This document shows positions 2,532 through 50,965 of a DNA stretch of 51,231 bases, one piece after another. Under the pieces are notes generated by a model. The model ran no database searches and had not been told where the DNA came from. It worked only from the letters and a program-made list of their open reading frames with translations. Every line of letters begins with the position of its first letter. The first letter of the stretch is position 1. Origin of the DNA: a virus; the IMG/VR virus record IMGVR_UViG_3300045988_044272, one strand, 5' to 3'. Both the position numbers and the translations under genes were made by a program.

Positions 2532-2912
2532 TTACAATGTGTTTAACAATAATGCGTTCAAATCTTCCGTAAACTGCAAGTATTCCTTGTATTCGGCAAC
2601 CGCATTATCATTGACTGAAACGCCAAGGATATGTTTGTTGTAAGAGTTTACAAGGTCAAATTCTGCCGTTTCGTCAAGAACGGAACGAATGATTACCCTT
2701 TTTAAGTTCGCCTTTGTCGGCTTGTCGAATGTGCGCACTTCATAACACTTCCAACCGACTTGAACTTCTTTTTCCTTACCTTCAGGAATGCCCGTTTCGG
2801 GTTCAATGTTGAAACGGAACAAGAAAGAACCGTCGTTGTCCTTTTCCAAAACGGCGGGTTTGCCATGCGCCATGTCATAATGCGCATTTGCTTCGATTGA
2901 ATTTAATTTCAT
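2532..2912 (-). CDS. Hypothetical protein downstream of the DGR RT (not Avd-like)
   Basis: 126-aa ORF overlapping the RT 3' end by 38 nt. Acidic with mixed predicted structure, unlike helical basic Avd. Confidence 0.5.
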   Translation of the reverse strand: MKLNSIEANAHYDMAHGKPAVLEKDNDGSFLFRFNIEPETGIPEGKEKEVQVGWKCYEVRTFDKPTKANLKRVIIRSVLDETAEFDLVNSYNKHILGVSVNDNAVAEYKEYLQFTEDLNALLLNTL

Positions 2913-3900
2913 ACGGGAATGTTTTTGAAAGTTTCTTCATTAAATTGATTGAATTACAGTATTTACACCATCCCCACCAACTGCATATCTGTTGTTTGTA
3001 CACCTCTTTTGTCGGGGCAATCTTGCGTTTGTTCAACTTTGCCACCCGGCGACAAAGTTTCTGCTTGATTGATTTCCGCAAAACGGTGTGAGAATGGTAA
3101 AATACATAGCCCAAGAAGTCAATCCCCCTTGAATCAACGGGAAAGACTTGGTAATTGCGTTTGACTTTAAGTTTCAAGCCACGCAAGTAAGCCCGGATTT
3201 CGTGCAACAATCCGTGCAAAATATCCTTGTTGTGTGCAAGAATCACAATATCATCGGCATAACGCCAATAATACTTCACCCTCTTTTCCTCTTTCAACCA
3301 ATGGTCAAAATATGCCAAGAAAAGGTTGGCAAAGTATTGGGAAAGATAATTGCCGATTGGCACACCCTCAACGGAATCTATAATTTCATCAAGCAATGCC
3401 AAAAGGCGGTTATCTTTTATTTTGCGCCTGACCACCTGTTTCAACAACTCATGGTCAATGGATGGGTAAAACTTGCGGACATCTATTTTAAGGCAATACC
3501 GCGTGCCATCCGGGTCTTGCTTCAATGCGTGCCTTAAATCCTTGGCGCATTTATGGATTCCACGGTTCTTGATACAAGAATAAGTGTTCTTGTTGAACAA
3601 TGATACCCAAATGGGTTCAAGCACGTTCATTATCGCGTGGTGCAAGATTCGGTCGGGATAATATGGCAACCGATAAATAAGACGTTCCTTGGGTTCGTAA
3701 ATCGTGAAAATGTGATACTTGGATGTTTTGAACGTACCGTTTTTCAAACTTTCGTGCAATGCAAGTAAATTGGCATCACGGTTTTTGTCGTGAATCATAA
3801 CACCATAAGAACGCAACTTACCTTTCCTCGCTTTTTCATCTGCAAGGCGCAAGTTTTCAAGTGAAATCACACGTTCATATAAATTTCCAATTCGTTTCAT
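2875..3900 (-). CDS. DGR-type reverse transcriptase
   Basis: RT motifs include PIGNYLSQYFANLFL (the DGR-specific I/LGxxxSQ) and RYADDIVIL (YxDD). It is adjacent to the TR/VR pair. The ORF track begins at 3918, but MKRIGNLYE at 3900 is the more plausible start. Confidence 0.9.
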   Translation of the reverse strand: MKRIGNLYERVISLENLRLADEKARKGKLRSYGVMIHDKNRDANLLALHESLKNGTFKTSKYHIFTIYEPKERLIYRLPYYPDRILHHAIMNVLEPIWVSLFNKNTYSCIKNRGIHKCAKDLRHALKQDPDGTRYCLKIDVRKFYPSIDHELLKQVVRRKIKDNRLLALLDEIIDSVEGVPIGNYLSQYFANLFLAYFDHWLKEEKRVKYYWRYADDIVILAHNKDILHGLLHEIRAYLRGLKLKVKRNYQVFPVDSRGIDFLGYVFYHSHTVLRKSIKQKLCRRVAKLNKRKIAPTKEVYKQQICSWWGWCKYCNSINLMKKLSKTFPYEIKFNRSKCAL

Positions 3901-4184
3901 TGTTTTACAATAACACAAGTTTGCTTGTATATTAGGATTCTTCGGGTGTTATCCCTACCAAAACCGTTTTACCTATTTCATTTTTTGCCGTTGGATTGCT
4001 CCAACTCATTCAACCCCGGTCGGGTCGTTTTTGTGGCAAGGTTTCCGATATGCAACTATATTTTTTACAAGCATAGCTGAGAACCGATATTCGCATTCGC
4101 ATTCGTAGCCGTATTATTCGTATTCGCATACACGAACCCTGCATTCGCACCATTATTCGCATTACCGCTGAACAAAACGCCACG
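3901..4184 (-). ncRNA. Putative DGR template RNA (TR plus 168-nt spacer leading into the RT gene)
   Basis: TR 4184->4069 is followed by non-coding spacer 4068->3901 directly upstream of the RT. In characterised DGRs the TR-spacer transcript is template and primer. Confidence 0.55.
4069..4184 (-). repeat. DGR template repeat (TR), 116 nt
   Basis: In frame it reads RGVLFSGNANNGANAGFVYANTNNTATNANANIGSQLC, with ten AAT codons and 29 adenines. It matches VR1 and VR2 except at adenines. Confidence 0.9.
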
Positions 4185-4234
4185 ACATCGGACAACCTTT
4201 TATTTCAAAACTTCAAAATCACATTTTATTCCGG

Positions 4235-5569
4235 CTATCTTGTTGAAGCCGTTTCGATTTGCTCGATTTGCGGGAAAAAGCAAAGCCGAGAACCGAAAGC
4301 CGCATTCGCATTCGCAGCCGCATGATTCGAAGACGCAGACACGAACCCCGCAGACGCACCAGTAAGCGCATGACCGCCGAACAAAACGCCACGTTCAGAA
4401 ACTCCACTTGCCGGAATGCTTGTGTAGAAGTAATCACAAAAATACGTTGTAGAACCCGCACCGACTTCAAGGGGCATAATCTCGCCATGTTCACCAAGGA
4501 TAAGTTTCTTCACATAACCCTCCCGTCTTGGCAAGTTACCACGTAATTGATAATTAGCAACTCCCGAACTTGTGAAATGCGTGGGGTCGTCACAAACGTA
4601 AAATTCAGACAACCCGCCATCTGCTTCCGATTGAATCAAGCATTTGCAAGCATCCGTCCATTTCCACAAATGCCCAAAAGGATTTTCAACGCCTCGATAA
4701 GATGGAACATTCACTTTGAATGGAACTGCATCATATTCCGTTGGCATTGTATATTCAACAACCCCTGTGTGATTGCCAAGGCTGTTTGTTGTACCACAAG
4801 GAATCACCGGGTAATATCCATTAAAATTGCTCCACTTCGTGCCATTCAATGTTGTAACACCCGCACTTAATCCGCCTTGGTGATAACCACTTTCATCAAG
4901 TTCGGCATTAAACGCATCTTGTGAATTGAATGTGCAATATTCAACAGCGAACAACCACCATAACTTGCGGTGTGTATGATACAAGTTGCAATTCCATTCG
5001 GTTGTACCACGCTTGCGGGCATACGCACGGAAATTAGTTAATGATATTGCCGTTGCGGGCATACCAAGTTGTGTCTTGGCTGTTCCATCACGTGAAGCAT
5101 CATTATTTCCACCGCGGTAATCCGCATCCATAGAATAAACAGCGGCAAGTTTGCTTGTTGAGCGTTGCACGGTCGCTTCCACGGCTGAAACATAGTCTTT
5201 GCGCCAAAGATGAAAACCGGGCAATGGTTGTGTTGATTGTAAATGCCGACATTTGTTGCCGTCCATTTCAAAACGTACATACATATTAGGTAGTTCAACC
5301 ATATATTGTCCGTCCTTGCCCGTCAAATCTGCCGCCGCGCCGTTATCACGTTTGGTTGAATCATTTGCGTGCAAATAATAATTTACCTTGCCATCATCTT
5401 TCAAGATGCAACGGCGCATCAATGATTGCAACGGCAATTCCTTGTGCAATTCCATCTTGCCTATTCGTGTCGGCTTTGGATTTGAAACGGTAATGTCCCA
5501 TTCAATGCCGTAATAATAATCATAGGCGAATTGTGGCTTCGTGCCACCTACTCCGATAAGTAAACCCAT
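4235..5569 (-). CDS. DGR target 1: tail-module variable protein with C-type-lectin/FGE-sulfatase-like C-terminus
   Basis: VR1 forms the last ~39 codons before the tail ...GVLFGGHALTGASAGFVSASSNHAAANANAAFGSRLCF. ENPFGHLWKWTD resembles the GNVWEW motif of FGE/CLec folds. It lies after the tail fibre genes. Confidence 0.85.
   Translation of the reverse strand: MGLLIGVGGTKPQFAYDYYYGIEWDITVSNPKPTRIGKMELHKELPLQSLMRRCILKDDGKVNYYLHANDSTKRDNGAAADLTGKDGQYMVELPNMYVRFEMDGNKCRHLQSTQPLPGFHLWRKDYVSAVEATVQRSTSKLAAVYSMDADYRGGNNDASRDGTAKTQLGMPATAISLTNFRAYARKRGTTEWNCNLYHTHRKLWWLFAVEYCTFNSQDAFNAELDESGYHQGGLSAGVTTLNGTKWSNFNGYYPVIPCGTTNSLGNHTGVVEYTMPTEYDAVPFKVNVPSYRGVENPFGHLWKWTDACKCLIQSEADGGLSEFYVCDDPTHFTSSGVANYQLRGNLPRREGYVKKLILGEHGEIMPLEVGAGSTTYFCDYFYTSIPASGVSERGVLFGGHALTGASAGFVSASSNHAAANANAAFGSRLCFFPQIEQIETASTR
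4278..4393 (-). repeat. DGR variable repeat 1 (VR1)
   Basis: Hand alignment to TR (offset 209, ungapped) gives 20 mismatches. All are at TR coding-strand adenines; none occur at the 87 other positions. Confidence 0.9.
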
Positions 5570-24679: not shown

Positions 24680-24945
24680 AAATTGAACAATATTGCATTA
24701 GTCTTGGTATCAAGGATAAAAAGGATTTATCCGACAAGCAAATTGAAGAATGGGGACGATATTTAAGCCCCGGGGGTATTCTTTCTCAAATTTTTATATT
24801 AGGCACGGAATTAGATAAAAAAAATGCCGTTGCTATGTTGCGAACTGCAATCAATAACAACAAGCATTTTCAATATTCTTACATCATCAATGAAAGTGAA
24901 GAAGACGTTGAGTTAAAAGAAAAATTCAAAATATGGCTTGATTAA
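24676..24945 (+). CDS. Hypothetical small protein (island gene 10)
   Basis: 89-aa ORF. Its stop overlaps the stop of the convergent 910-aa gene by 4 nt. Confidence 0.5.
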   Translation: MKIEQYCISLGIKDKKDLSDKQIEEWGRYLSPGGILSQIFILGTELDKKNAVAMLRTAINNNKHFQYSYIINESEEDVELKEKFKIWLD

Positions 24946-27674
24946 GGTTTTGCCATATACTTTTCAATGATTCTTCGCATATCATCATATAATTGGGGCG
25001 CAATTTCTTTGAATATAGGGTTGCCGCCCCAATAGTTTTCAGAACAATGGGCGATAAATTCGGCAAGCTGTTTATCTTGTGTCCAATACTTGACATCATG
25101 CCCCCTTGGTCGGATGAATTTATGCCCGGAAATTGCAGCTTGCAAACAATCGGTAAATGCTCCAAGTTGTTCTTCAAATTCCATTTGTAATGCTTCTTGT
25201 TCTTCGCATTTCGCAAATAATTCTTTTTTCAGCCTTTCGGCTTCATCCATTTTGCCTATTTGTTTCAACTCTTGATATTGCTTCCAAGCATTATCCCTGA
25301 ATTTATCAAAATCAGCCCCGAATTTATCAAGTTTTTCTTGAATAACCCCTTTGAGCCTTTCTCCCTCTCCCGCATTGATAACCTTTTTCCAATCGTCATA
25401 AATCTTCATCAATTCGCTTTTAGATTTAAGTGCAATTTGATGGTCAAAGGCGTGTCCAAATTCGTGATAGAACAATCCTTTTCGATACCACGGTGATTTG
25501 GACATTCGTTGAAGATTATCATTTTCAAATGATATATTCACATATTTGTAAGTCGGTGAATAATGCGCACCGTTCTTTAATGCGACCAATGGAACAAAAT
25601 CTTTGAGTGAATCGAAAAATTCCTTGCTTGGCAATGCTTCCATCATGCCGGGTATCTTTTTTACATAGTCTGTAAAAATGTTGTATGGCATATTGGGTGA
25701 AATGTTATCAAATCCTATTTGCTTAACTTCTTTCAATGATGCAAGTTTATAGATGTTGTAAGCCTTTTCAATTTGCACATACACTTTCTCATATCCCTTA
25801 TTTACAAAATCATGTTCATTTATCGCCTTTATTGCTTCATTGTAAGCCTTGCGCCATTGAATAGGAATCTTTGTTGATGAAACACCTTTTAATTCCTGTA
25901 AATGGTCAATTGATTTGAAACAAGGTTTCGCTTGTCCGTTCATCAATGATTTATGACTTGACCAAGATTTCAATTCATAACCAAGCCATCTATCAGATTC
26001 ACCATTCTTTATTTTTTCACGGGCGGAATCAATATAACCTTGGAAACGCGATTCTTTACCATAGAAATGTTCCAAGTTATCCATCAAAGTAGATAGACGT
26101 TCTGCATTTGTCGCTTTTGTCTTATCAGACTTAAATTGCCAATCAGGGGCTTTAATTTTAAGAACATCATCGTTGGATGCTTGATTTGTTGCTATCTTAC
26201 TCAACAAGTCTTGAAGTCTTTTCTTAAATACTTCTTTACCTGTAATCCAATCACGCTTATCACCTGTAATGGCGGCAATGTCGTTGAGTATTTCCGAAAC
26301 ATCAATATTATGTTTCCGGGCTTCTTTTATGGCTTCTGTTGCATCCGCGATATAATTCTTGTATTCCTGCATCACTACATCAACACGACCATGTAAAACA
26401 GAAATTGCATTGACAACACCGGACGGATTGCGGTTTTGGATAGCATCATCAAGGATGAATGTATTTAAGCCCCATTCATTGCACATTGCGCGGATTGAAG
26501 ATATTTGCGGCTTCAATTGGTCAAGCTGCCTTTGTATCGGGTCAATCTTCGGTTGGAGTGAAATAATATCCAACTTCAAGCCTTTGGACAATTGACCATC
26601 CTTGAAGTTGTCTTTAATGAAATAGGGTGTTGAAGCCCACTTCTTTTGTGCTTCTTCATGGTCTTTCACCCATTGCTTAAACCCGTCCGGCACATCGGTA
26701 ACAAGGTTCTTGGCTTCCAACTTCTTGTATTGCGTGCCATGCAATGCAGCTTTGAGGTCGCCAAGTTCATTTTCATCAAAGGTTTCTTCATCCATCAAGA
26801 TAGGCACGGCATAACACATACATTGCGGATGCCACCCCTTGAACTTGAATGTTTTCGGATAACGCCCAACCAACTTTTCACATATATCACACTTGAACAA
26901 TGGTTCATGGTTGCTTCTGCGAATTTCATAACCAACGACAAAATCAAGTGATTGCCAACGCAAGAAATCACTTTCACGATAAGCCATATTGATTTCGGAA
27001 CGTGTAAGGCGCATCGCATTCTTATATGAAGAACGGTAAACACCTTGTCCGGGGTGGAATGCTTTGGCGGCTTTTGACAACACAAGGTTTCCGCGCTTAT
27101 CTCTTACACGGCGGAACAATCGGTTTGGCTCTTTAAGGTTTTCCCTGACATCACGGGATAATTGGGCGGCATTGCGACCCTCGCCCAAACCTACATCAAG
27201 GGCGGATTCCAATTGTGCTTTGTATTGCCCTACATATTTCCAAACCCTTTGCGAAAGGTTCATTCCCTCAACTTTGCGTCCTTGGAATGTCTGTAACGCT
27301 TCCAAGTTGCGGTCTTGCATCTTCTTCAACCTTGCTTTGCTCAACTTGGACGTGTCCATTATTGAAGCAATGAAGCCATCATTCTTTTCACAAGCGAACA
27401 ACCATTGTTTCTTTGACCCCGTTTCAATAACTGTTATCATTCGGTCGGCAAGTTGCTTTGTTATACCTTGCATTACAGATTTAACACCGGGGTAATCATC
27501 AAAAGAAAAGGGTTTGTCGGGGTCGTATGTACCTTTTGCCACCGCCTTTGCAATCTCGGTGGTGGCACGGTCAAACAAGGCATTCACGGCTTGTGTGTAT
27601 TGTTCCGTTTGCCTGTAATGTGCTGCATCGTATGATTGAATCGAAAACCGCGTTGTCTTTTGTCGCTTTGCCAT
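24942..27674 (-). CDS. Polyvalent minor head protein: MuF/SPP1 gp7-like domain fused to a large C-terminal region with an HExxH metallopeptidase-like motif
   Basis: MuF-type region (LTRSEINMAYRES...GWHPQCMCYAVP, compare HPNCRC). C-terminal LFYHEFGHAFDH, with HEFGH encoded at 25452..25466. It lies two small genes downstream of the portal gene (a lipoprotein and a Cys-rich ORF intervene). Confidence 0.7.
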   Translation of the reverse strand: MAKRQKTTRFSIQSYDAAHYRQTEQYTQAVNALFDRATTEIAKAVAKGTYDPDKPFSFDDYPGVKSVMQGITKQLADRMITVIETGSKKQWLFACEKNDGFIASIMDTSKLSKARLKKMQDRNLEALQTFQGRKVEGMNLSQRVWKYVGQYKAQLESALDVGLGEGRNAAQLSRDVRENLKEPNRLFRRVRDKRGNLVLSKAAKAFHPGQGVYRSSYKNAMRLTRSEINMAYRESDFLRWQSLDFVVGYEIRRSNHEPLFKCDICEKLVGRYPKTFKFKGWHPQCMCYAVPILMDEETFDENELGDLKAALHGTQYKKLEAKNLVTDVPDGFKQWVKDHEEAQKKWASTPYFIKDNFKDGQLSKGLKLDIISLQPKIDPIQRQLDQLKPQISSIRAMCNEWGLNTFILDDAIQNRNPSGVVNAISVLHGRVDVVMQEYKNYIADATEAIKEARKHNIDVSEILNDIAAITGDKRDWITGKEVFKKRLQDLLSKIATNQASNDDVLKIKAPDWQFKSDKTKATNAERLSTLMDNLEHFYGKESRFQGYIDSAREKIKNGESDRWLGYELKSWSSHKSLMNGQAKPCFKSIDHLQELKGVSSTKIPIQWRKAYNEAIKAINEHDFVNKGYEKVYVQIEKAYNIYKLASLKEVKQIGFDNISPNMPYNIFTDYVKKIPGMMEALPSKEFFDSLKDFVPLVALKNGAHYSPTYKYVNISFENDNLQRMSKSPWYRKGLFYHEFGHAFDHQIALKSKSELMKIYDDWKKVINAGEGERLKGVIQEKLDKFGADFDKFRDNAWKQYQELKQIGKMDEAERLKKELFAKCEEQEALQMEFEEQLGAFTDCLQAAISGHKFIRPRGHDVKYWTQDKQLAEFIAHCSENYWGGNPIFKEIAPQLYDDMRRIIEKYMAKP

Positions 27675-34559: not shown

Positions 34560-35213
34560 TTAGAATAATTTTAATTGTGCTTGGTGATACAATAAGCGCT
34601 GTTTGGCTGCATTGAAATATCCGGGGTCAAGTTCAATCCCCAACATTTCAAACCCTAAATTGTGTGCTGCTATACAAATAGAACCCGAACCCAAATGGGT
34701 ATCAAGGATTCTTTCACCCGGTTTTGCATAATGCACCAATAACCATTCGTAAAGTTTAATCGGCTTTTCGGTTGGGTGTATGGTGTTTTGCTTTGCCAAC
34801 TCACAACGGTTTATTGTTACAACCCTTGTCGGGCAATCAAAAGATGAATATGCAAGTTCACAATCTGACATTGTTAGCCCGGTTTGCCCCTTGAACCAAC
34901 AAATCCAACCTTTCGTGCCTTTTGTCAAATTCTCCACAAAGTAATTCGCACCCCAAATTATTTGATTGCGCGACACTCTTTCAAGTTCCCGGAAATACTC
35001 ACGGGGGGGGGTATTTTTATCCCATCCTTTTTGCTCATGGGCTTTTCGGTTGTGTTTTGGGTTTTTGCACACACATTTCTTTTGACCATCAACCCCGATT
35101 CCATAAGGCGGGTCACAAATAGCAAGGTCAAAGGCATTGTCCGGCAAATTCCGCATTACTTCCATACAATCACCATTCACAAGTTGAATACCCCCGAATG
35201 ATTCAATTTTCAT
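34560..35213 (-). CDS. DNA methyltransferase (N6-adenine/N4-cytosine, beta class), no cognate endonuclease
   Basis: Motif IV ICDPPYGIG precedes the AdoMet motif DTHLGSGSICIAA. Contains a C9 coding-strand tract at 35003..35011. Confidence 0.85.
   Translation of the reverse strand: MKIESFGGIQLVNGDCMEVMRNLPDNAFDLAICDPPYGIGVDGQKKCVCKNPKHNRKAHEQKGWDKNTPPREYFRELERVSRNQIIWGANYFVENLTKGTKGWICWFKGQTGLTMSDCELAYSSFDCPTRVVTINRCELAKQNTIHPTEKPIKLYEWLLVHYAKPGERILDTHLGSGSICIAAHNLGFEMLGIELDPGYFNAAKQRLLYHQAQLKLF
35003..35011. repeat. G9 homopolymer (C9 on the coding strand) inside the DPPY methyltransferase gene
   Basis: acgggggggggta read directly. It encodes T-P-P-R (acc ccc ccc cgt). It is the longest G/C run I found in the window. 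Confidence 0.9.
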
Positions 35214-35781
35214 ATTGATTTCTTGTAACTATATCAAATACCGCTTTTGTCAATTCAATGTCATACATGGCATCATGCAATGATTCATCATTGACATTCA
35301 CACCAAGGGTTTTTGCAACTGTTGATAACTTGAAGTTTTCCATATCGGGGCGACGGGTCGCAAGATATGCGGAAGCAAGCACCATTACATCAATTGAGTT
35401 TGACCAAAACCAAGAACCGAAATAAACATCGCCATTCTGCAAGAAGAATCCACGCAAAAATTGGTTATCGAAAGCCGCATTGTTATAACCGACCAAAAAG
35501 AACTTATCCTTTTTGTTGAACTTGTCCACATACTTGCCAAGCATAGCCACAAACTCTTGATAAACTTGTTGCATCGGCGGGTATGCAAGTATTTGTTCGC
35601 GTGTTACACCGCCCACTTTCAAGGCTTCATCTTCAATCATTGCCCTTGGGTTGGGTTGAACGTGAAAGTCGAATGTTTCTTTTATCACGCCATCAATCAC
35701 GATTTGCCCGGATATTTGGTGAATACCATGTTTGCCGGGGTTTGTTCCTGTTGTTTCAAGGTCGAAAAATACTAATTTCAT
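35203..35781 (-). CDS. DnaQ-like 3'-5' exonuclease
   Basis: MKLVFFDLETTG (Exo I), GYNNAAFD (Exo II) and HDAMYDIELT (Exo III). Confidence 0.85.
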   Translation of the reverse strand: MKLVFFDLETTGTNPGKHGIHQISGQIVIDGVIKETFDFHVQPNPRAMIEDEALKVGGVTREQILAYPPMQQVYQEFVAMLGKYVDKFNKKDKFFLVGYNNAAFDNQFLRGFFLQNGDVYFGSWFWSNSIDVMVLASAYLATRRPDMENFKLSTVAKTLGVNVNDESLHDAMYDIELTKAVFDIVTRNQYEN

Positions 35782-35790
35782 TGTTTTTGA

Positions 35791-36120
35791 TTATTTGGTT
35801 TTGTTATATTCTTCTTCAACACGTTGTAAGACATATTCAAGTGGGCGTTCTTTTATGAACCGTTCCTTTTCTTCGTTTGTCAAAGATTGACATTGCTTGA
35901 CATATGTTCTTGCGTGGGCTTCCATGACTTCCGGCAATGTAGCCTTACTCCAACAATGTTCGCATAAGGAGAATGTGCCGAATGAATCACTTAGCTCAAT
36001 GGATTTGGGCTTGCATACTGACCAAGGCAAACTGCAAATTTCGCAAGTTCCAAAAGACGGATAAAGTATTTGATACGCCCTTACTACAAATGGCAATCTT
36101 TTTATTCTTTCAATTTCCAT
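35791..36120 (-). CDS. Hypothetical Cys-rich protein
   Basis: 109 aa with CEIC...C...CEHC. A copy of the 16-nt motif lies 9 nt upstream of its ATG. Confidence 0.5.
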   Translation of the reverse strand: MEIERIKRLPFVVRAYQILYPSFGTCEICSLPWSVCKPKSIELSDSFGTFSLCEHCWSKATLPEVMEAHARTYVKQCQSLTNEEKERFIKERPLEYVLQRVEEEYNKTK

Positions 36121-36129
36121 ACTGTTTTT

Positions 36130-36145
36130 GTTTTATAGTGATACA
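36130..36145 (-). promoter_or_regulatory. 16-nt motif copy, 9 nt upstream of ATG 36120
   Basis: Plus-strand gttttatagtgataca, exact. Confidence 0.6.
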
Positions 36146-36152
36146 AATAATT

Positions 36153-37220
36153 CTAAATTTTTGATAGCCAATACTCCCATATTCGGCTTGCGATTTGTGC
36201 CATCATCACGGGTGGCACCGACATTCCACAAACATAATGCGGTGGTTGCCCGGCAAAGTTGTAATCTTGCGGGAATGATGAAATGCAACACACTTCACTT
36301 TGCCCCAAGAACCGGGGTTGCTCAAAATGAATCAAGCAAGATTCTTTGCTTGCAAGGGTGGGGCAAATTCTATCCAAGTACACATAAGTTTGATTAAAAT
36401 TGCTTCCTTTGCCGAATAACCTTTCATTTGCCGCACCTTGGTTCAAATCACCTTTTTGGCGGTTATCCCATAGCAAACGTATTGTTTTGCTCTTTGCTTC
36501 ACGACCTTTGAAGTCTGCAACCTCACCAAACATTATCGGCTTTTCGTTAAAGTCTAAATTCAAAGCCGGAACAACATCGAACAAGCCTTGCGAAACAAGG
36601 AAAGGCGCGGCAATATCTTTACGCAAGCACACGAAAAATACACGTTCACGGCGTTGGGGAACACCCATTTTTTGTGCATCAAGCAACCAATGTTGGCAAT
36701 AATACCCGGCATCCTCGAAACCATCATAAATGCGCCTTACATAGTTCTTGGCTTCACCAAGTAGCAATCCTTTTACATTTTCCGCAACAACCACTTTGGG
36801 CTGTAACCTCTTTGCAAGGTCTATGAAATCGAAAAACAACGTGTCCAACACTTGTTCCGCCTGCCCCTCACGAAAATGTTTCATCTTACCCCAAGCATCT
36901 TCACGGCTTCCAGCTATTGAAAAGGTAGAACAAGGGGGCGAACCGTCCAAAATATCAAGATTGAACAATTCGGGTGGCAAATCATTTTTTTCTTTGAACG
37001 TCTGTATCGGTTCAAGGAAAGGGAAACGCGGATTGTGATTTTGGCAATAGGTGTACATCATACGGTGGTCTATCTCATTGCACCCTATCACATCAAACCC
37101 GGCAAGTTTGTAACCCATAGAACTGCCCCCCCCACACGCAAAACAAGAAAATACCTTGCCTTTGTCCTTGGTGAAGTCGGCACCTTTCAACGTCCAACGG
37201 TAATCATATTTGTGCATCAT
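36153..37220 (-). CDS. dcm: DNA (cytosine-5)-methyltransferase, no cognate endonuclease
   Basis: Motif I FSCFACGGGSS, motif IV GSPPCSTFS, ENV motif VVAENVKG, and QRRERVFF. Contains a G8 coding-strand tract at 37126..37133. Confidence 0.9.
   Translation of the reverse strand: MMHKYDYRWTLKGADFTKDKGKVFSCFACGGGSSMGYKLAGFDVIGCNEIDHRMMYTYCQNHNPRFPFLEPIQTFKEKNDLPPELFNLDILDGSPPCSTFSIAGSREDAWGKMKHFREGQAEQVLDTLFFDFIDLAKRLQPKVVVAENVKGLLLGEAKNYVRRIYDGFEDAGYYCQHWLLDAQKMGVPQRRERVFFVCLRKDIAAPFLVSQGLFDVVPALNLDFNEKPIMFGEVADFKGREAKSKTIRLLWDNRQKGDLNQGAANERLFGKGSNFNQTYVYLDRICPTLASKESCLIHFEQPRFLGQSEVCCISSFPQDYNFAGQPPHYVCGMSVPPVMMAQIASRIWEYWLSKI
37126..37133. repeat. C8 homopolymer (G8 on the coding strand) inside the C5-methyltransferase gene
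   Basis: ctgccccccccaca read directly. It encodes the GGG of motif I (tgt ggg ggg ggc). Confidence 0.9.
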
Positions 37221-38801: not shown

Positions 38802-39551
38802 TTATAATTTTCTTCTGTCCTTTCCTTTGATTTCAAAGTAATTACACATTTCCACCAACCGACTTGCCACACGGTCGCCATAACGGTTCATTAATACATC
38901 ACCTTGCATCTTCATGTTGGAAGTTATCAAAGTCATTTCATCGCATTTGTCGCCCCGGTATTCGATAAGCTGCCGGACTACATCAATACGATTACCCATG
39001 TACAAGTTTTCTTGTGGTTCTTGCCCGAAATCCTGAATGCCAAGCATCGGTTGTTTTTTGAATATCTGGAAATTGCCATTCTCAACGAAGTAGTCACACA
39101 AAGCATCTGCACGAATAATCCGCCACCATAGGGGGCGTGGTTGTGAATCATCTTGCCAAAGAACTTTGAAGCCGAAAGCCGTGCAATATGCTTGCATTAT
39201 TTCCAAACACCATGATTTGCCCGACCCTGTATTTCCGGCAATGTATATTCCACGCTTCAATCGCCCCGGTATCACTTGCCCTGTATTGGGGTCAAGGCAT
39301 TTCATTGACGGGTCGCAATGCGCCCATTTGATGAAGTTTTCGTAAGTGAATCGGTTTTCATCATCAATTACGAATTTCGGGTTTCGGCTTTTGCCAATCG
39401 CTTCAACAATCTTCAATGCTTCATTTACATCATAGTGAATGTATTGGTAGCGTTGGAAGCCCGCAAATAATCCACGCTGATTGATTGCATGAAGTATTTG
39501 TTCAATACTTGGCATCTGAATCTTTTTGTTATTTCCGTCTTTTACTTCCAT
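38802..39551 (-). CDS. DnaC/IstB-like AAA ATPase (replicative helicase loader-like)
   Basis: Walker A GIYIAGNTGSGKSW. LITSN-type segment MTLITSNM. Adjacent to the replisome organizer gene. Confidence 0.6.
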   Translation of the reverse strand: MEVKDGNNKKIQMPSIEQILHAINQRGLFAGFQRYQYIHYDVNEALKIVEAIGKSRNPKFVIDDENRFTYENFIKWAHCDPSMKCLDPNTGQVIPGRLKRGIYIAGNTGSGKSWCLEIMQAYCTAFGFKVLWQDDSQPRPLWWRIIRADALCDYFVENGNFQIFKKQPMLGIQDFGQEPQENLYMGNRIDVVRQLIEYRGDKCDEMTLITSNMKMQGDVLMNRYGDRVASRLVEMCNYFEIKGKDRRKL

Positions 39552-40237
39552 TCGTCATTCACTTTTGTTGTTGTCTTGTTGCCTGAATATGCCGACCGCC
39601 TTTCTTTTTCTCCTTTTGCCCAATTGCGAATGGCGGCTTTCCAATCTTTCATCTTGTTTTTACCGACAAACCAACCTTTGCTTTCGTAGAAGTCGAAAAA
39701 CCTTTCAGCATCGAAAGAATATCCCTTTTCAAGAATATAAGCCCTTATTTCTTCAATTGTGGGCGGTAAAAAGCGGTGTCCGCTTTTCTCTTTTATATTC
39801 TCTTTATTATCTTCTTTTCTTTCCTTTTCTTTTCTTTCCTTTGCATCATTTTGCAATGCACTTGCATCGGCTTTGCATTGCTCTTGCTTATCCTTACTTG
39901 ATTGCCAACGCTTTATGGCTGCTGCTTTTCGCTTTTCCGCTATGTCCGCACGTTTACCAAGGCGTGTTATTACTGACTTTGACCAAAACTTTTCACCATC
40001 ATTAGTGAACAAATCAAAGTCATTCACGACACTTTCAACCATTGCTACATCAACGTGCAATGCAAATGCAATACTTTTGCACGATTTCAAAGGCAAATGC
40101 CCCCCTTGTTCGTATAATTGTTCTACAACGCACCAAAAGACACCTAACCCCGCCGCCCCGTGCTCAATCAAAACATCTTGCAACTTTGGGTCGGTTCGTG
40201 CATTGTAATCATGTTGAAAATAGAATGTATCTTTCAT
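39542..40237 (-). CDS. Phage replisome organizer / replication initiation protein (DUF4373-like N-terminus)
   Basis: MKDTFYFQHDYNARTDPKLQDVLIEHGAAGLGVFWCVVEQLY matches the DUF4373 pattern. Confidence 0.6.
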   Translation of the reverse strand: MKDTFYFQHDYNARTDPKLQDVLIEHGAAGLGVFWCVVEQLYEQGGHLPLKSCKSIAFALHVDVAMVESVVNDFDLFTNDGEKFWSKSVITRLGKRADIAEKRKAAAIKRWQSSKDKQEQCKADASALQNDAKERKEKERKEDNKENIKEKSGHRFLPPTIEEIRAYILEKGYSFDAERFFDFYESKGWFVGKNKMKDWKAAIRNWAKGEKERRSAYSGNKTTTKVNDEWK

Positions 40238-49401: not shown

Positions 49402-49688
49402 AAAAATCTATCAATCCACGGGCAATTGAAATCCAACGGCGATTTTTTGAAGCATTGGACATGGCTATTTCCTTGGGCAAGGTAAATGGTTTGAAAGGTT
49501 TTTGTGATACCCACAAATTGAACCGCACCAAGTATTCAAGGATAAAAAACGACTTGAACAAACCGCTTGATGAAATGACATACAAGATGATTGATTTGGA
49601 TGCACTTTCGGGCATTTGTACGGACTTTGGCGTATCGGCTGAATGGTTGTTGCTCGGACGTGGAAAAATGCTTAAATCGGACAAATAA
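49398..49688 (+). CDS. Phage CI-repressor-type HTH protein (possible recombination directionality or regulatory factor)
   Basis: C-terminal LSGICTDFGVSAEWLLLGRGKM matches the ...WLLtGeG ending of the Phage_CI_repr family. Its stop overlaps the integrase start. Confidence 0.45.
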   Translation: MKKSINPRAIEIQRRFFEALDMAISLGKVNGLKGFCDTHKLNRTKYSRIKNDLNKPLDEMTYKMIDLDALSGICTDFGVSAEWLLLGRGKMLKSDK

Positions 49689-50965
49689 TGCACATACAAA
49701 AGGGAATAAAGTTTTTGTTACACAAAAGGGGCAAGGGTGATTCCGAAAATCTTGCAATCCGAATGCGCGTTACATTGAGGGGGCAAACACCTTTTGATGT
49801 TCCGACCGGGCATAATATAGACCTTGCCGATTGGGATATGGAAAACCAGCGTGCATTACCATCTTGCAATTCATCATCAGACATAAACCGAACCATTGAT
49901 GAATGGAAATCGGTAATGAATGAAATCTTTGCCCGATATGAATTGTTAGAAAAGCGTATTCCAACACCGGGTGAAGTCAAGGACTTGTTTAATGACATGA
50001 TGGGGCGAAAGACCCCAACCAATGAATCCCTTGCTTCACCCGGCGACAACTTCTTTATGACATTTGATGTTTTTACTGAAACGATGGGCAAGCAAAATGG
50101 ATGGACGGAAGCGACACAAGAAAAATTCCGCGCAATAAAAGCACATTTGCAAGCCTTTGACCCGTTATTATCATTCTATACATTGAATGAAGAAAAGATG
50201 CAAGCATACCTTGCACATTTAAGTAAGGTTGGATTACGGAACACCACCATTGCAAAGAACCTTGCTTTTGTCCGTTGGTTTTTACGTTGGGCGGCAAACA
50301 AGGGATATTATCTTGGTAAGCTGCATGATACATTCAAGCCCAAATTGAAAGGCATTGACGGCAATTCAAAAGAAATAATATATTTGACACAAGATGAAAT
50401 CAAATCATTGGAAAATCACCAATTCTTGCCCACACAATCAGCCCTTGAACGTGTCCGGGACGTGTTCTTGTTTTCATGCTTCACCGGGTTGCGTTATTCA
50501 GATGTTGCCAAATTAAAGCGTACTGACATAAAAGACGGCTTTATTGATGTCGTAACCAAGAAAACCAATGACGGGTTGCGTATAGAATTGAACAAGCATT
50601 CACAAGCCATTCTTGACAAATACAAGGAATGCCACTTTCCGGGGAACTTGGCATTACCTGTAATATCGAATGTGAAGATGAATGCACACTTGAAAATACT
50701 TGGGCAAGTGTGTGGCATTGATGAACCGACCCGAATTGTGTTTTTTCAAGGCAACACCCGGCATGAACAAGTATTGCCAAAGTGGGCATTATTGACAACT
50801 CATTGCGGACGGCGAACATTTGTTGTTACCGCCTTGCAACTTGGCATCCCAAGTGAAGTCATAATGAAGTGGACGGGGCATTCTGATTATTCGGCAATGA
50901 AACCATATATTGCCATTGTTGATGAATTAAAGGCAAAAGCAATGTCGCGGTTTGATAATCTCTAA
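49688..50965 (+). CDS. int: Tyrosine integrase (Bacteroides-type, with N-terminal arm-binding and SAM-like domains)
   Basis: Catalytic signature FTGLRYSD (R), HCGRRTF (H-x-x-R) and GHSDYSAMKPYI (H...Y). 425 aa. Confidence 0.9.
   Translation: MHIQKGIKFLLHKRGKGDSENLAIRMRVTLRGQTPFDVPTGHNIDLADWDMENQRALPSCNSSSDINRTIDEWKSVMNEIFARYELLEKRIPTPGEVKDLFNDMMGRKTPTNESLASPGDNFFMTFDVFTETMGKQNGWTEATQEKFRAIKAHLQAFDPLLSFYTLNEEKMQAYLAHLSKVGLRNTTIAKNLAFVRWFLRWAANKGYYLGKLHDTFKPKLKGIDGNSKEIIYLTQDEIKSLENHQFLPTQSALERVRDVFLFSCFTGLRYSDVAKLKRTDIKDGFIDVVTKKTNDGLRIELNKHSQAILDKYKECHFPGNLALPVISNVKMNAHLKILGQVCGIDEPTRIVFFQGNTRHEQVLPKWALLTTHCGRRTFVVTALQLGIPSEVIMKWTGHSDYSAMKPYIAIVDELKAKAMSRFDNL

What the first reader, a model, noticed from the sequence alone, without database searches (positions are those of the whole stretch)
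34560..37220. Both phage DNA methyltransferase genes contain long G/C homopolymer tracts: candidate phase-variable epigenetic switches
The two longest G/C homopolymers I found in the whole window both fall inside the two orphan methyltransferase genes.

- A G9 run at 35003..35011 (C9 on the coding strand) encodes T-P-P-R in the DPPY N6A/N4C methyltransferase.
- A C8 run at 37126..37133 (G8 on the coding strand) encodes the GGG of AdoMet motif I in the C5 methyltransferase.

Tracts of this length are prone to slipped-strand mispairing. A +/-1 change would truncate either enzyme early. Phase-variable methyltransferases are known in bacteria.

Here both enzymes of one phage carry such tracts. This could create subpopulations with different methylation patterns and therefore different susceptibility to host restriction systems. 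In lysogens it could create different methylomes.
Basis: partly seen in the sequence, partly recalled or inferred. Interest (0 to 1): 0.65.

Follow-up and report, generated by a model that had tools for sequence, protein, structure and literature searches.

The report
Slippery-repeat switches in phage methylase genes
A temperate gut Bacteroidales phage carries two DNA methylase genes, each with a slippery run of G or C whose length differs between near-identical relatives and breaks or restores the reading frame, so the phage very likely flips its DNA-marking enzymes on and off at random.

Summary
G9 (35003..35011) and C8 (37126..37133) are the only G/C runs of 7 or more in the window. They lie in an N6/N4 methyltransferase gene (PF01555) and a C5 methyltransferase gene (PF00145).

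Two such runs are not unusual by chance (13 of 100 shuffles), so the case rests on relatives. Among 63 distinct alleles of the C5 gene the tract runs G6–G11: 38 in frame, 25 out of frame. Of the 25 broken alleles, 23 become full-length once the tract is repaired. G7, G8 and G10 occur on identical gene backgrounds, and ON/OFF state shows no phylogenetic signal. An independent set of 24 metagenome contigs gives G8 ×16 and G6/7/9/10 ×8. The N6 tract varies C6–C10, including a C10 frameshift in the window's own lineage.

A distant clade of the C5 gene carries a (GA)4–13 repeat instead, in frame only at 6, 9 and 12 copies. In terminase-selected relatives, methyltransferase DNA is 5.9% of the sequence but holds 49 of 61 G/C runs of 8 or more.

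These are repeat-driven, probably reversible ON/OFF switches of phage orphan methyltransferases. Switching rate, methylation and benefit are untested. I rate it a new variant of a known kind.

The parts
34560..35213 (-). Orphan beta-class (CcrM-like) N6-adenine/N4-cytosine DNA methyltransferase gene, 217 aa. The DPPY motif is at residues 34-37 and the AdoMet-binding region is at the C-terminus.
   Evidence: ORF. PF01555, E 1.9e-18. PHROG 67 'DNA methyltransferase'. The best solved relative is CcrM 6pbd, matching residues 6-44 and 136-207.
35003..35011 (-). C9 tract on the coding strand (G9 on +), codons 68-71 (ACC CCC CCC CGT = T-P-P-R). It lies in the poorly conserved stretch between the DPPY motif and the AdoMet-binding domain. 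This is switch 1.
   Evidence: Coordinates. C7, C8, C10 and C11 give 70-85-aa products, while C6 and C12 stay in frame. The homologous tract is C6-C10 in relatives, and 5 of 16 distinct alleles are frameshifted. C8 and C10 alleles are identical over 650 nt to C9 alleles, and L175 in the window's own lineage has C10.
36153..37220 (-). Orphan C5-cytosine DNA methyltransferase gene, 355 aa. It has motif I (FACGGGSS), the PPC catalytic motif (GSPPCSTFS), ENV (AENVKGL) and QRRER.
   Evidence: ORF. PF00145, E 6.6e-46 over residues 22-347. PHROG 116. Solved relatives are 8yf3_A (E 6.5e-50), M.HaeIII and M.HhaI.
37126..37133 (-). G8 tract on the coding strand (C8 on +), codons 30-32 (GGG GGG GGC = G-G-G of AdoMet motif I). 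This is switch 2.
   Evidence: Coordinates. G6, G7, G9 and G10 give 41-44-aa products, while G5 and G11 stay in frame. Relatives carry G6-G11: 38 in-frame and 25 out-of-frame distinct alleles. An independent metagenome set gives G8 x16, G7 x5, and G6, G9, G10 x1 each. State shows no phylogenetic signal.

Best explanation
Both tracts are hypermutable simple-sequence repeats, that is, contingency loci, inside the coding sequences of two orphan DNA methyltransferases of a temperate, DGR-bearing Bacteroidales siphovirus-like phage.

**Proposed mechanism**
1. While the phage or prophage DNA replicates, slipped-strand mispairing adds or removes a G:C pair in a tract.
2. Any change that is not a multiple of three shifts the frame. 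The N6/N4 enzyme is then truncated before its AdoMet-binding domain, or the C5 enzyme within motif I, so no active enzyme is made (OFF).
3. A later slip restores the frame (ON).
4. The two switches flip independently, so one phage lineage produces up to four methylation types of virion DNA. When it is integrated, it produces up to four lysogen methylomes.

**Most likely benefit (inferred)**
The benefit would be bet-hedging. Methylated genomes escape classical restriction-modification systems that cut the unmodified site. Unmethylated genomes escape methylation-dependent (Type IV) nucleases and avoid any cost of methylating the host chromosome.

**Shown here**
- The tracts exist and their frame consequences are as stated.
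- Tract length is extensively polymorphic between identical flanks and between near-identical genomes.
- OFF alleles are otherwise intact.
- ON/OFF state carries no phylogenetic signal.
- Such tracts are enriched in methyltransferase genes.
- Different repeat types have arisen in the same gene family.

**Inferred only**
- The slippage mechanism and its rate.
- Reversibility within a lineage.
- Enzyme activity and target sites.
- The selective advantage.
For: 1. **Length polymorphism at fixed flanks.** For TGT-Gn-CAG the counts are G6 x2, G7 x11, G8 x30, G9 x4, G10 x2, G11 x1. For TGT-Gn-TCN they are G7 x2, G8 x3, G9 x7, G10 x1. For TTA-Cn-GAATAC, C8, C9 and C10 all occur. Among sites present in at least 4 loci, 4 of 6 G/C sites reaching 9 or more are length-polymorphic. 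The figure is 0 of 272 for G/C runs of 4-6 and 5 of 48 for A/T runs of 6-8.
2. **Independent data.** A flank-pattern scan of metagenome contigs found 24 contigs, and the stretch between the flanks was always pure G. Sixteen were G8 and 8 were out of frame, including contigs labelled cov 162 (G7) and cov 54 (G9).
3. **Tract change outpaces substitution.** L093 and L102 differ by 1 substitution in 9,066 nt but by 3 homopolymer indels, two of them in methyltransferase polyG tracts. L124 and L135 differ by 3 substitutions in 6,135 nt, and their only indel is the C5 tract, G9 versus G7. G7 and G10 alleles have zero distance over 1,030 nt to a G8 allele.
4. **Homoplasy.** At least 17 ON/OFF changes are needed on a 58-tip tree, against a mean of 18.3 for shuffled states.
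5. **Not decay.** 23 of 25 OFF alleles become 353-389-aa ORFs when only the tract is repaired.
6. **Own lineage.** L175 is 96-98% identical to the window and has C10, giving a 71-aa product.
7. **Convergence.** A distant clade of the same C5 family has GGT GGC GGT at motif I but carries (GA)4-13. It is in frame only at n = 6, 9 and 12, and 15 of 24 loci are out of frame. Other methyltransferase families in related phages carry variable polyG: PF05869 Dam, and a second PF01555 enzyme with G7, G8 and G9.
8. **Unbiased enrichment.** In 80 terminase-selected loci (1.435 Mb), methyltransferase-homologous DNA is 5.9% of bases but holds 49 of 61 G/C runs of 8 or more (P = 5e-49). Counting each homologous site once gives 4 of 11 (P = 0.003).
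9. **Rare codons.** The tracts are built from rare codon choices.
10. **Field thresholds.** Both tracts exceed the usual cut-offs for phase-variable repeats, G/C of 7 or more and 6 or more dinucleotide repeats (PMC6321876).
Against: - No read-level data were available. Heterogeneity within one population and the per-generation switching rate are therefore not shown.
- All variation comes from consensus assemblies of different samples.
- Presence of the two tracts in this single window is not significant on its own.
- The four closest C5 alleles to the window (L081, L103, L150, L159) all carry G8.
- At least one close relative, L082 (97% identical gene), has the tract interrupted (GGC GGT GGC). 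The tract is therefore dispensable.
- Enzyme activity, target motifs and any fitness effect are untested.
- RNA-polymerase slippage on such runs could make OFF alleles leaky.
- Repeat-driven phase variation is not the classical mode in Bacteroidales, where invertases dominate. I do not know the slippage behaviour of their replication and repair machinery on G/C runs.
Confidence: 0.78

Rival explanations
1. The tracts are mutational hot spots with no evolved switch function. They are by-products of the Gly-Gly-Gly and Pro-Pro sequences. Prophage methyltransferases are often costly or useless, so loss-of-function alleles are repeatedly selected or tolerated. They arise at the most mutable site and are dead ends rather than reversible states.
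For: Some lineages do without the tract: L082, L104 and the GGT GGC GGT clade. The window's tracts are not improbable by composition alone. The (GA)n alleles are in frame in only 9 of 24 loci, close to the one-third expected with no selection on frame.
Against: - 23 of 25 OFF alleles carry no second lesion.
- ON and OFF states are fully interspersed on the tree, and +1, -1 and +2 alleles share identical backgrounds. This fits frequent two-way change rather than accumulating dead ends.
- Three kinds of repeat (polyG, polyC, GA) have arisen in methyltransferase genes of at least four families.
- The density of such runs is about 65-fold higher in methyltransferase DNA than elsewhere (derived from the counts).
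- The tract persists in C5 genes down to about 63% protein identity despite using the rarest Gly codon.
Confidence: 0.12
2. The length differences are sequencing or assembly errors at homopolymers, and the genes are really uniform.
For: Homopolymers are error-prone on several platforms. One relative comes from a long-read metaFlye assembly (L158). One assembly breaks exactly at the N6 tract (L069/L101).
Against: - Variation spans up to 5 nt (G6-G11), and (GA)4-13 is not a homopolymer.
- A/T runs of 6-8 in the same contigs are almost invariant.
- OFF alleles occur in contigs labelled with 54x and 162x coverage. That these are short-read SPAdes assemblies is my inference from the contig names.
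- OFF alleles also occur in cultured-isolate genomes: B. pyogenes DSM 20611 and B. acidifaciens DSM 15896.
- The same spectrum appears in two separately retrieved collections.
Confidence: 0.03
3. The tracts mainly tune expression level through RNA-polymerase slippage or ribosomal frameshifting. DNA alleles scored OFF would then still make some active enzyme, and alleles scored ON would make less than full amounts. The result would be a rheostat rather than a binary switch. This can coexist with DNA-level switching.
For: Established knowledge: long homopolymers cause transcriptional slippage in bacteria. Nothing here excludes it. The high share of out-of-frame alleles (about 40% for polyG) would be easier to tolerate if OFF were leaky.
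Against: No direct evidence. I saw no frameshift-stimulating signals, though I did not search for them systematically. The DNA-level length changes are real in any case.
Confidence: 0.07

Closest known systems
Bacterial phase-variable DNA methyltransferases and phasevarions (Type III mod and Type I genes of Haemophilus, Neisseria, Moraxella and Streptococcus suis; polyG/C tracts in Helicobacter pylori and Campylobacter restriction-modification genes)
   Same: A repeat inside the methyltransferase coding sequence. Length changes shift the frame and give ON/OFF alleles. Tract lengths (G/C of 7 or more) are in the accepted range (PMC6321876; PMC5909438 abstract; PMC12003011).
   Different: Here the genes are carried by a temperate phage. 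They are orphan C5 and beta-class N6/N4 enzymes rather than Type III Mod or Type I HsdM/S. The hosts are gut Bacteroidales, where described phase variation is invertase-based (PMC11868660). No regulon effect has been shown.
Phage contingency loci: Campylobacter Fletchervirus polyG tracts in receptor-binding protein genes (Sorensen et al. 2021, as cited), and homopolymer loci in coliphages T2/T4 (bioRxiv 10.1101/2025.10.21.683753)
   Same: Hypermutable homopolymers in phage genes that create mixed phage populations as a bet-hedging device.
   Different: Those loci affect adsorption, receptor-binding or other phage functions in virulent phages. Here the targets are DNA-modification enzymes of temperate phages, so the diversified trait is the epigenetic mark on the DNA rather than host recognition.
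Bordetella phage BPP-1: polyG tract in a methylase gene plus a diversity-generating retroelement
   Same: [quoted passage not shown] BPP-1 is also the founding DGR phage (PMC5075021). The window likewise combines repeat-bearing methylase genes with a DGR.
   Different: The host phylum is unrelated and no sequence relationship was tested. I could not read the original BPP-1 paper, so the comparison rests on a one-line citation. In the Bacteroidales phages the pattern recurs in several methylase families and is documented by many natural ON/OFF alleles.
Prophage-borne 'roving' methyltransferases of the Bacteroides fragilis group (Tisza et al. 2023, PMC10333322)
   Same: Bacteroidales prophages commonly carry one or more orphan methyltransferases that are swapped modularly between phages. 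I see the same mosaicism: relatives with a near-identical C5 gene carry a different N6 gene.
   Different: That study explains epigenome diversity by gene flow. A term search of the paper finds no mention of homopolymers or slipped-strand switching of these genes. The present data add a much faster ON/OFF layer.

Membership tests
Repeat-mediated (translational) phase-variable / contingency locus | A simple-sequence repeat of mutable length lies inside the ORF (field cut-offs: G/C of 7 or more, 6 or more dinucleotide repeats) | tested here: met
   C9 lies at codons 68-71 and G8 at codons 30-32. Cut-offs come from PMC6321876.
Repeat-mediated (translational) phase-variable / contingency locus | A change in repeat number toggles between a full-length product and an early truncation | tested here: met
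   In-silico shifts of one or two bases give 70-85-aa and 41-44-aa products, against 217 and 355 aa. Natural alleles show the frame break at the tract.
Repeat-mediated (translational) phase-variable / contingency locus | Repeat number varies among closely related genomes while the rest of the gene stays intact | tested here: met
   G6-G11 and C6-C10 occur between identical flanks. Some OFF alleles have p-distance 0 to an ON allele, and 23 of 25 OFF alleles are repairable to full length.
Repeat-mediated (translational) phase-variable / contingency locus | High-frequency, reversible switching within a clonal population (typically above 1e-5 per generation) | not testable with these tools
   No reads or cultures were available. 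The only evidence is indirect: ON/OFF state has no phylogenetic signal (17 changes against 18.3 in shuffles), and one assembly breaks exactly at the N6 tract (L069/L101).
Phasevarion (phase-variable regulon) | Methyltransferase ON/OFF switching changes genome-wide methylation and the expression of a set of host genes | not testable with these tools
   No methylome or transcriptome data. The phage is temperate: it has an integrase at 49688..50965, and relatives lie on 100-kb to 2.7-Mb bacterial contigs. A lysogen effect is therefore possible but not shown.
C5 cytosine DNA methyltransferase (PF00145) | Conserved motifs I (FxGxG), IV (PC), VI (ENV) and VIII (QxRxR) over the full-length domain | tested here: met
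   PF00145 matches residues 22-347 with E 6.6e-46. The alignment to 8yf3_A covers FACGGGSS, GSPPCSTFS, AENVKGL and QRRER.
Beta-class N6-adenine / N4-cytosine DNA methyltransferase (PF01555) | The DPPY catalytic motif lies N-terminal to the AdoMet-binding motif | tested here: met
   DPPY is at residues 34-37. PF01555 and CcrM 6pbd match residues 6-44 and 136-207. Whether the target is N6-A or N4-C cannot be decided from sequence.
Orphan (solitary) methyltransferase | No cognate restriction endonuclease gene adjacent | tested here: met
   The neighbours are a MazG-like protein, a DnaQ-like exonuclease, a 109-aa ORF with no hit, and a DUF4406/DnaA-HTH protein. A novel nuclease fold in the 109-aa ORF cannot be ruled out strictly, but that ORF is absent from close relatives that keep both methyltransferases.

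The most novel reading that the evidence does not exclude
Temperate phages of gut Bacteroidales would run a combinatorial, repeat-driven 'epigenetic dice' system. Several DNA-modification genes per genome would each carry an independently slipping repeat. Those genes include C5, beta-class N6/N4 and Dam-type methyltransferases, and possibly a PAPS-reductase-like gene. Every burst or lysogen population would then contain 2^n modification types. This would let the phage hedge between classical restriction and methylation-dependent nucleases across hosts. In lysogens it would act as a mobile phasevarion that toggles host methylomes, adding a fast, previously unrecognised layer to strain-level epigenome mosaicism in the gut. 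In this phage it would work alongside a DGR that diversifies the tail protein.
Probability: 0.35. Interest if true: 0.8.

Novelty: new variant of a known kind. Interest (0 to 1): 0.66.

Why it matters
Phage-encoded methyltransferases are very common in gut temperate phages and help shape the mosaic methylomes of Bacteroides strains. They have so far been treated as simply present or absent.

If they switch ON and OFF by repeat slippage, several things follow:
- Methylation of virions and lysogens is heterogeneous even within one phage genotype. This affects host-range prediction, phage-host linking by methylation motifs, and methylome-based binning.
- Phages gain a cheap answer to the dilemma between restriction-modification systems and methylation-dependent nucleases.
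- Prophages could impose reversible epigenetic states on commensal hosts.
- Annotation pipelines will often call these genes pseudogenes or split ORFs; about 40% of natural alleles are out of frame.

The hypothesis can be tested directly with amplicon sequencing and long-read methylation calling on cultivable relatives. Candidates are the prophages in B. pyogenes DSM 20611 and B. acidifaciens DSM 15896.

Tried and rejected
- **Chance test on the window alone.** It was not significant, so I dropped 'improbable composition' as an argument.
- **Public phage records.** A search of annotated phage genomes found only distant relatives, about 69% identity and only within the C5 gene, which are useless for tract comparison.
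- **First indel census.** The census among pairs of at least 93% identity was swamped by ordinary evolutionary indels. I replaced it with an alignment-free comparison of runs between identical 12-nt flanks.
- **Sequencing-error explanation.** Considered and rejected as the main cause, for the reasons given under rivals.
- **Pseudogene-decay explanation.** Tested by repairing only the tract, and rejected for 23 of 25 alleles.
- **Literature.** Seven full-text searches and term searches within ten papers found no description of repeat-switched phage methyltransferases in Bacteroidales. The only precedent is a one-line mention for Bordetella phage BPP-1. The original BPP-1 paper is not held. The library omits most subscription journals, so absence is not proof.
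- **Tools left unused.** I did not run the large protein-homology searches or structure prediction, because DNA-level comparison answered the question.
- **L182.** Its C6 allele has a register that does not fit the simple rule: repair needs +1 or -2. I left it unexplained; a second nearby indel is likely.
Full report
**1. The observation**

The window has G9 at 35003..35011 and C8 at 37126..37133. These are its only G or C runs of 7 or more; the next longest are five runs of 6.

- The G9 is C9 on the coding strand of ORF 34560..35213 (minus strand, 217 aa). The ORF matches PF01555, the N6/N4 DNA methylase family, and has DPPY at residues 34-37. It is CcrM-like, with the catalytic motif N-terminal and the AdoMet-binding region C-terminal.
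- The C8 is G8 on the coding strand of ORF 36153..37220 (minus strand, 355 aa). The ORF matches PF00145, the C5 cytosine methylase family. The tract encodes the GGG of FACGGGSS, which aligns with FAGGGGSS of the solved enzyme 8yf3_A.
- A slip of one or two bases truncates the products to 70-85 aa and 41-44 aa. A slip of three bases keeps the frame.
- None of the neighbouring genes has a nuclease-type partner domain.

**2. Is it more than chance?**

Not from the window alone. Dinucleotide-preserving shuffles give at least as many G8 matches in 13 of 100 trials.

Two things are unusual:
- **Location.** The two genes are 3.4% of the window, so both tracts falling inside them has P of about 0.001. 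This is a calculation made after seeing the data.
- **Codons.** GGG is the rarest Gly codon (16%). Only 2 of 55 Gly-Gly peptides are encoded GGGGGG, and only 1 of 17 Pro-Pro peptides is encoded CCCCCC.

The real test therefore had to be comparative.

**3. What the element is**

The window is a temperate tailed phage.
- It encodes a large terminase, portal, head-morphogenesis protein, tape measure, tail proteins, replication initiator, SbcC-like protein and GH108 endolysin.
- It encodes an HTH repressor and a tyrosine integrase.
- It carries a DGR, described in section 10.

Relatives sit in Bacteroidales genomes: Parabacteroides, Bacteroides pyogenes, Alistipes, Prevotella and B. acidifaciens. 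Some are on contigs far longer than a phage, which indicates prophages.

**4. Tract lengths in relatives**

I fetched 155 viral-contig loci through the two proteins, 10 genome loci and 24 metagenome contigs through a flank pattern that allows any insert.

*C5 gene.* There are 63 distinct alleles, 38 in frame and 25 out of frame.

| Flank context | G6 | G7 | G8 | G9 | G10 | G11 |
|---|---|---|---|---|---|---|
| TGT-Gn-CAG (in frame at G8, G11) | 2 | 11 | 30 | 4 | 2 | 1 |
| TGT-Gn-TCN (in frame at G9) | – | 2 | 3 | 7 | 1 | – |

In the independent metagenome set the insert was always pure G: G8 x16, G7 x5, and G6, G9 and G10 x1 each. The out-of-frame alleles include contigs labelled with 54x and 162x coverage.

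*N6 gene.* There are 16 distinct alleles, 11 intact and 5 broken, spanning C6 to C10. C8 and C10 alleles are identical over 650 nt to C9 alleles. L167 (C9) and L175 (C10, 71-aa product) are 96-98% identical to the window over 8-10 kb. The window's own lineage therefore contains a frameshifted variant.

All four ON/OFF combinations of the two genes occur on single contigs.

**5. Controls**

- **Error control.** I compared runs between identical 12-nt flanks at sites present in at least 4 loci. 4 of 6 G/C sites reaching 9 or more are length-polymorphic and multi-allelic. The figure is 0 of 272 for G/C runs of 4-6, and 5 of 48 for A/T runs of 6-8. The polymorphic A/T sites I examined look intergenic.
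- **Rate relative to substitution.** L093 and L102 differ by one substitution in 9,066 nt but by three homopolymer indels, two of them in methyltransferase polyG tracts. L124 and L135 differ by three substitutions in 6,135 nt, and their only indel is the C5 tract.
- **Phylogenetic signal.** On a neighbour-joining tree of 58 alleles with the tract removed, ON/OFF state needs at least 17 changes. Shuffled states need 18.3 on average (range 12-23). G7, G8 and G10 share identical 1,030-nt backgrounds.
- **Decay control.** 23 of 25 out-of-frame alleles become 353-389-aa ORFs when only the tract is repaired. The other two are short, probably cut by contig ends.

**6. Generality**

- A more distant clade of the same C5 family has GGT GGC GGT at motif I. 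It carries a (GA)n repeat about 45 codons downstream, with n = 4-13. The frame is open only at n = 6, 9 and 12, and 15 of 24 loci are out of frame. One of these is the isolate B. acidifaciens DSM 15896.
- Variable polyG tracts also occur in PF05869 Dam-type enzymes and in a second PF01555 enzyme (G7 in frame, G8 and G9 out of frame). They occur too at other positions of the N6 family, namely the WGG motif and the 5' and 3' ends.
- To remove the bias of choosing loci by methyltransferase, I fetched 80 relatives through the terminase with 10-kb flanks (1.435 Mb). Methyltransferase-homologous DNA is 5.9% of bases but holds 49 of 61 G/C runs of 8 or more, 59 of 74 runs of 7 or more, and 21 of 24 runs of 9 or more (P = 5e-49). 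Counting each homologous site once gives 4 of 11 (P = 0.003).
- One 'outside' tract turned out to be in yet another PF01555 gene, and five lie in a PAPS-reductase-domain gene.

**7. Mechanism**

The best-supported reading is classical slipped-strand mispairing at intragenic repeats, giving independent and probably reversible ON/OFF states of two orphan methyltransferases.

- *Shown:* the anatomy, the frame consequences, natural length polymorphism that outpaces substitution, intact OFF alleles, homoplasy, enrichment and convergence.
- *Inferred:* slippage as the cause, the rate, reversibility within a lineage, enzyme activity and specificity, and the benefit.

The most plausible benefit is bet-hedging. 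Hosts with classical restriction cut unmethylated DNA, while hosts with methylation-dependent nucleases cut methylated DNA. A reversible effect on lysogen methylomes is also possible.

Rivals are a hot spot without switch function, assembly error, and expression tuning by transcriptional slippage. They are weighed in their own section of this report. None explains the whole pattern, and the last can coexist with DNA-level switching.

**8. Comparison with what is known**

- Repeat-switched methyltransferases are well known in bacteria as phasevarions, and as H. pylori and Campylobacter restriction-modification genes.
- Hypermutable homopolymers in phages are known for Campylobacter phage receptor-binding proteins and, in a 2025 preprint, for T2 and T4. 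That preprint notes a polyG tract in a methylase gene of Bordetella phage BPP-1 that was never studied.
- Work on Bacteroides prophage methyltransferases and on gut-phage methylomes does not mention repeat switching.
- Term searches of a 2025 phase-variation review and a 2026 methyltransferase review found no phage-encoded or prophage examples of it.

The mechanism is therefore known. New here are the carrier (temperate phages), the enzyme classes (orphan C5, beta-class N6/N4, Dam-type), the host group (gut Bacteroidales) and the recurrent multi-gene pattern. I rate it a new variant of a known kind.

**9. Limits**

- No reads, cultures or methylomes were available.
- Every allele is a consensus from a different sample.
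- The platform behind the largest viral-contig source is not stated in the tool outputs. I infer short-read assemblies from contig naming.
- The literature library is incomplete.

**10. Other things seen**

- The window has a complete DGR. It comprises a reverse transcriptase (2875..3918), a template repeat (4069..4184) and a variable repeat (4278..4393) at the 3' end of tail gene 4235..5569. Every mismatch between the repeats falls at a template adenine. This phage therefore combines two different diversity generators, as BPP-1 is reported to do.
- A 109-aa Cys-rich ORF (35791..36120) between the exonuclease and the C5 gene is absent from close relatives.

Noticed in passing
window 2875..5569 (RT 2875..3918, template repeat 4069..4184, variable repeat 4278..4393, tail gene 4235..5569; all on the minus strand): A complete diversity-generating retroelement. 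It has a reverse transcriptase (PF00078) and a 116-nt repeat pair at 83% identity. Every mismatch falls at an adenine of the copy next to the RT. The variable copy lies at the 3' end of a tail-protein gene. The phage therefore has two separate hypervariation systems, DGR and repeat switches.
   Followed up: partly
L126-L148 and L161-L165, about 220 nt into the C5 methyltransferase gene (for example L146:4222): A distant clade of the same C5 methyltransferase family lacks the polyG tract. It has a (GA)n repeat with n = 4-13, in frame only at n = 6, 9 and 12. 15 of 24 loci are out of frame, including the isolate B. acidifaciens DSM 15896 (L163).
   Followed up: yes
L214:17644, L215:17697, L219:17643, L222:17643 (terminase-selected relatives): A polyC tract (C8 or C10) lies inside a PAPS-reductase-domain (PF01507, SGGKDS PP-loop) gene in the structural region. 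The in-frame length would be 9, so all four copies are out of frame. The homologue in L203 is intact and lacks the tract at that site. This may be another switchable DNA-modification-related gene.
   Followed up: partly
L015/L016/L024-L026/L054/L055/L074 (Dam-type, G7-G11 just upstream of NPPY); L093/L102/L149 near 6330 (second PF01555 gene, G8/G9/G7); L226:8987 (ParB-like region joined to a PF01555 domain, G8): Other methyltransferase families in related phages carry their own polyG tracts, again with in-frame and out-of-frame alleles.
   Followed up: partly
L049-L051, L060, L062, L064, L065, L067, L068, near position 4875: Very long polyG runs (10 to 19) sit at the extreme 3' end of N6 methyltransferase homologues in non-gut metagenome viral contigs. 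Several contigs end just beyond the run. This could be real hypervariable C-terminal tails or an assembly or two-colour-chemistry artefact.
   Followed up: no
window 35789..36111 (ORF 35791..36120, minus strand): A 109-aa Cys-rich ORF with no Pfam or PHROG hit lies between the exonuclease and the C5 methyltransferase genes. It is absent from close relatives L175, L167, L081 and L159, whose alignments jump from 35788 to 36112. It looks like a small gene insertion.
   Followed up: partly
L069 and L101 (contigs IMGVR_UViG_2788500543_000001 and _000002): Two contigs of one assembly end exactly at the N6 polyC tract, one on each side. The assembly broke at the repeat, which may reflect mixed tract lengths in the reads or poor coverage there.
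   Followed up: no
L082 / L001 (contig IMGVR_UViG_3300045988_021198), C5 gene motif I: A C5 gene 97% identical to the window's has the tract replaced by GGC GGT GGC TCA ACA. Several changes are clustered in about 15 nt of an otherwise near-identical gene. This is a natural 'locked-ON' allele, possibly produced by a recombination patch.
   Followed up: partly
window 39812..39842, inside the replication-initiator gene 39542..40237: A TTCTT pentamer repeated about 6 times (also readable as a 15-mer repeated twice) lies within the replication-initiation gene. These may be origin iterons.
   Followed up: no
window 24942..27674 (minus strand): The 910-aa head-morphogenesis (SPP1 gp7-like) protein also matches a PHROG annotated as Bxa ADP-ribosyltransferase at residues 202-359. 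This suggests a virion-carried toxin or effector domain.
   Followed up: no
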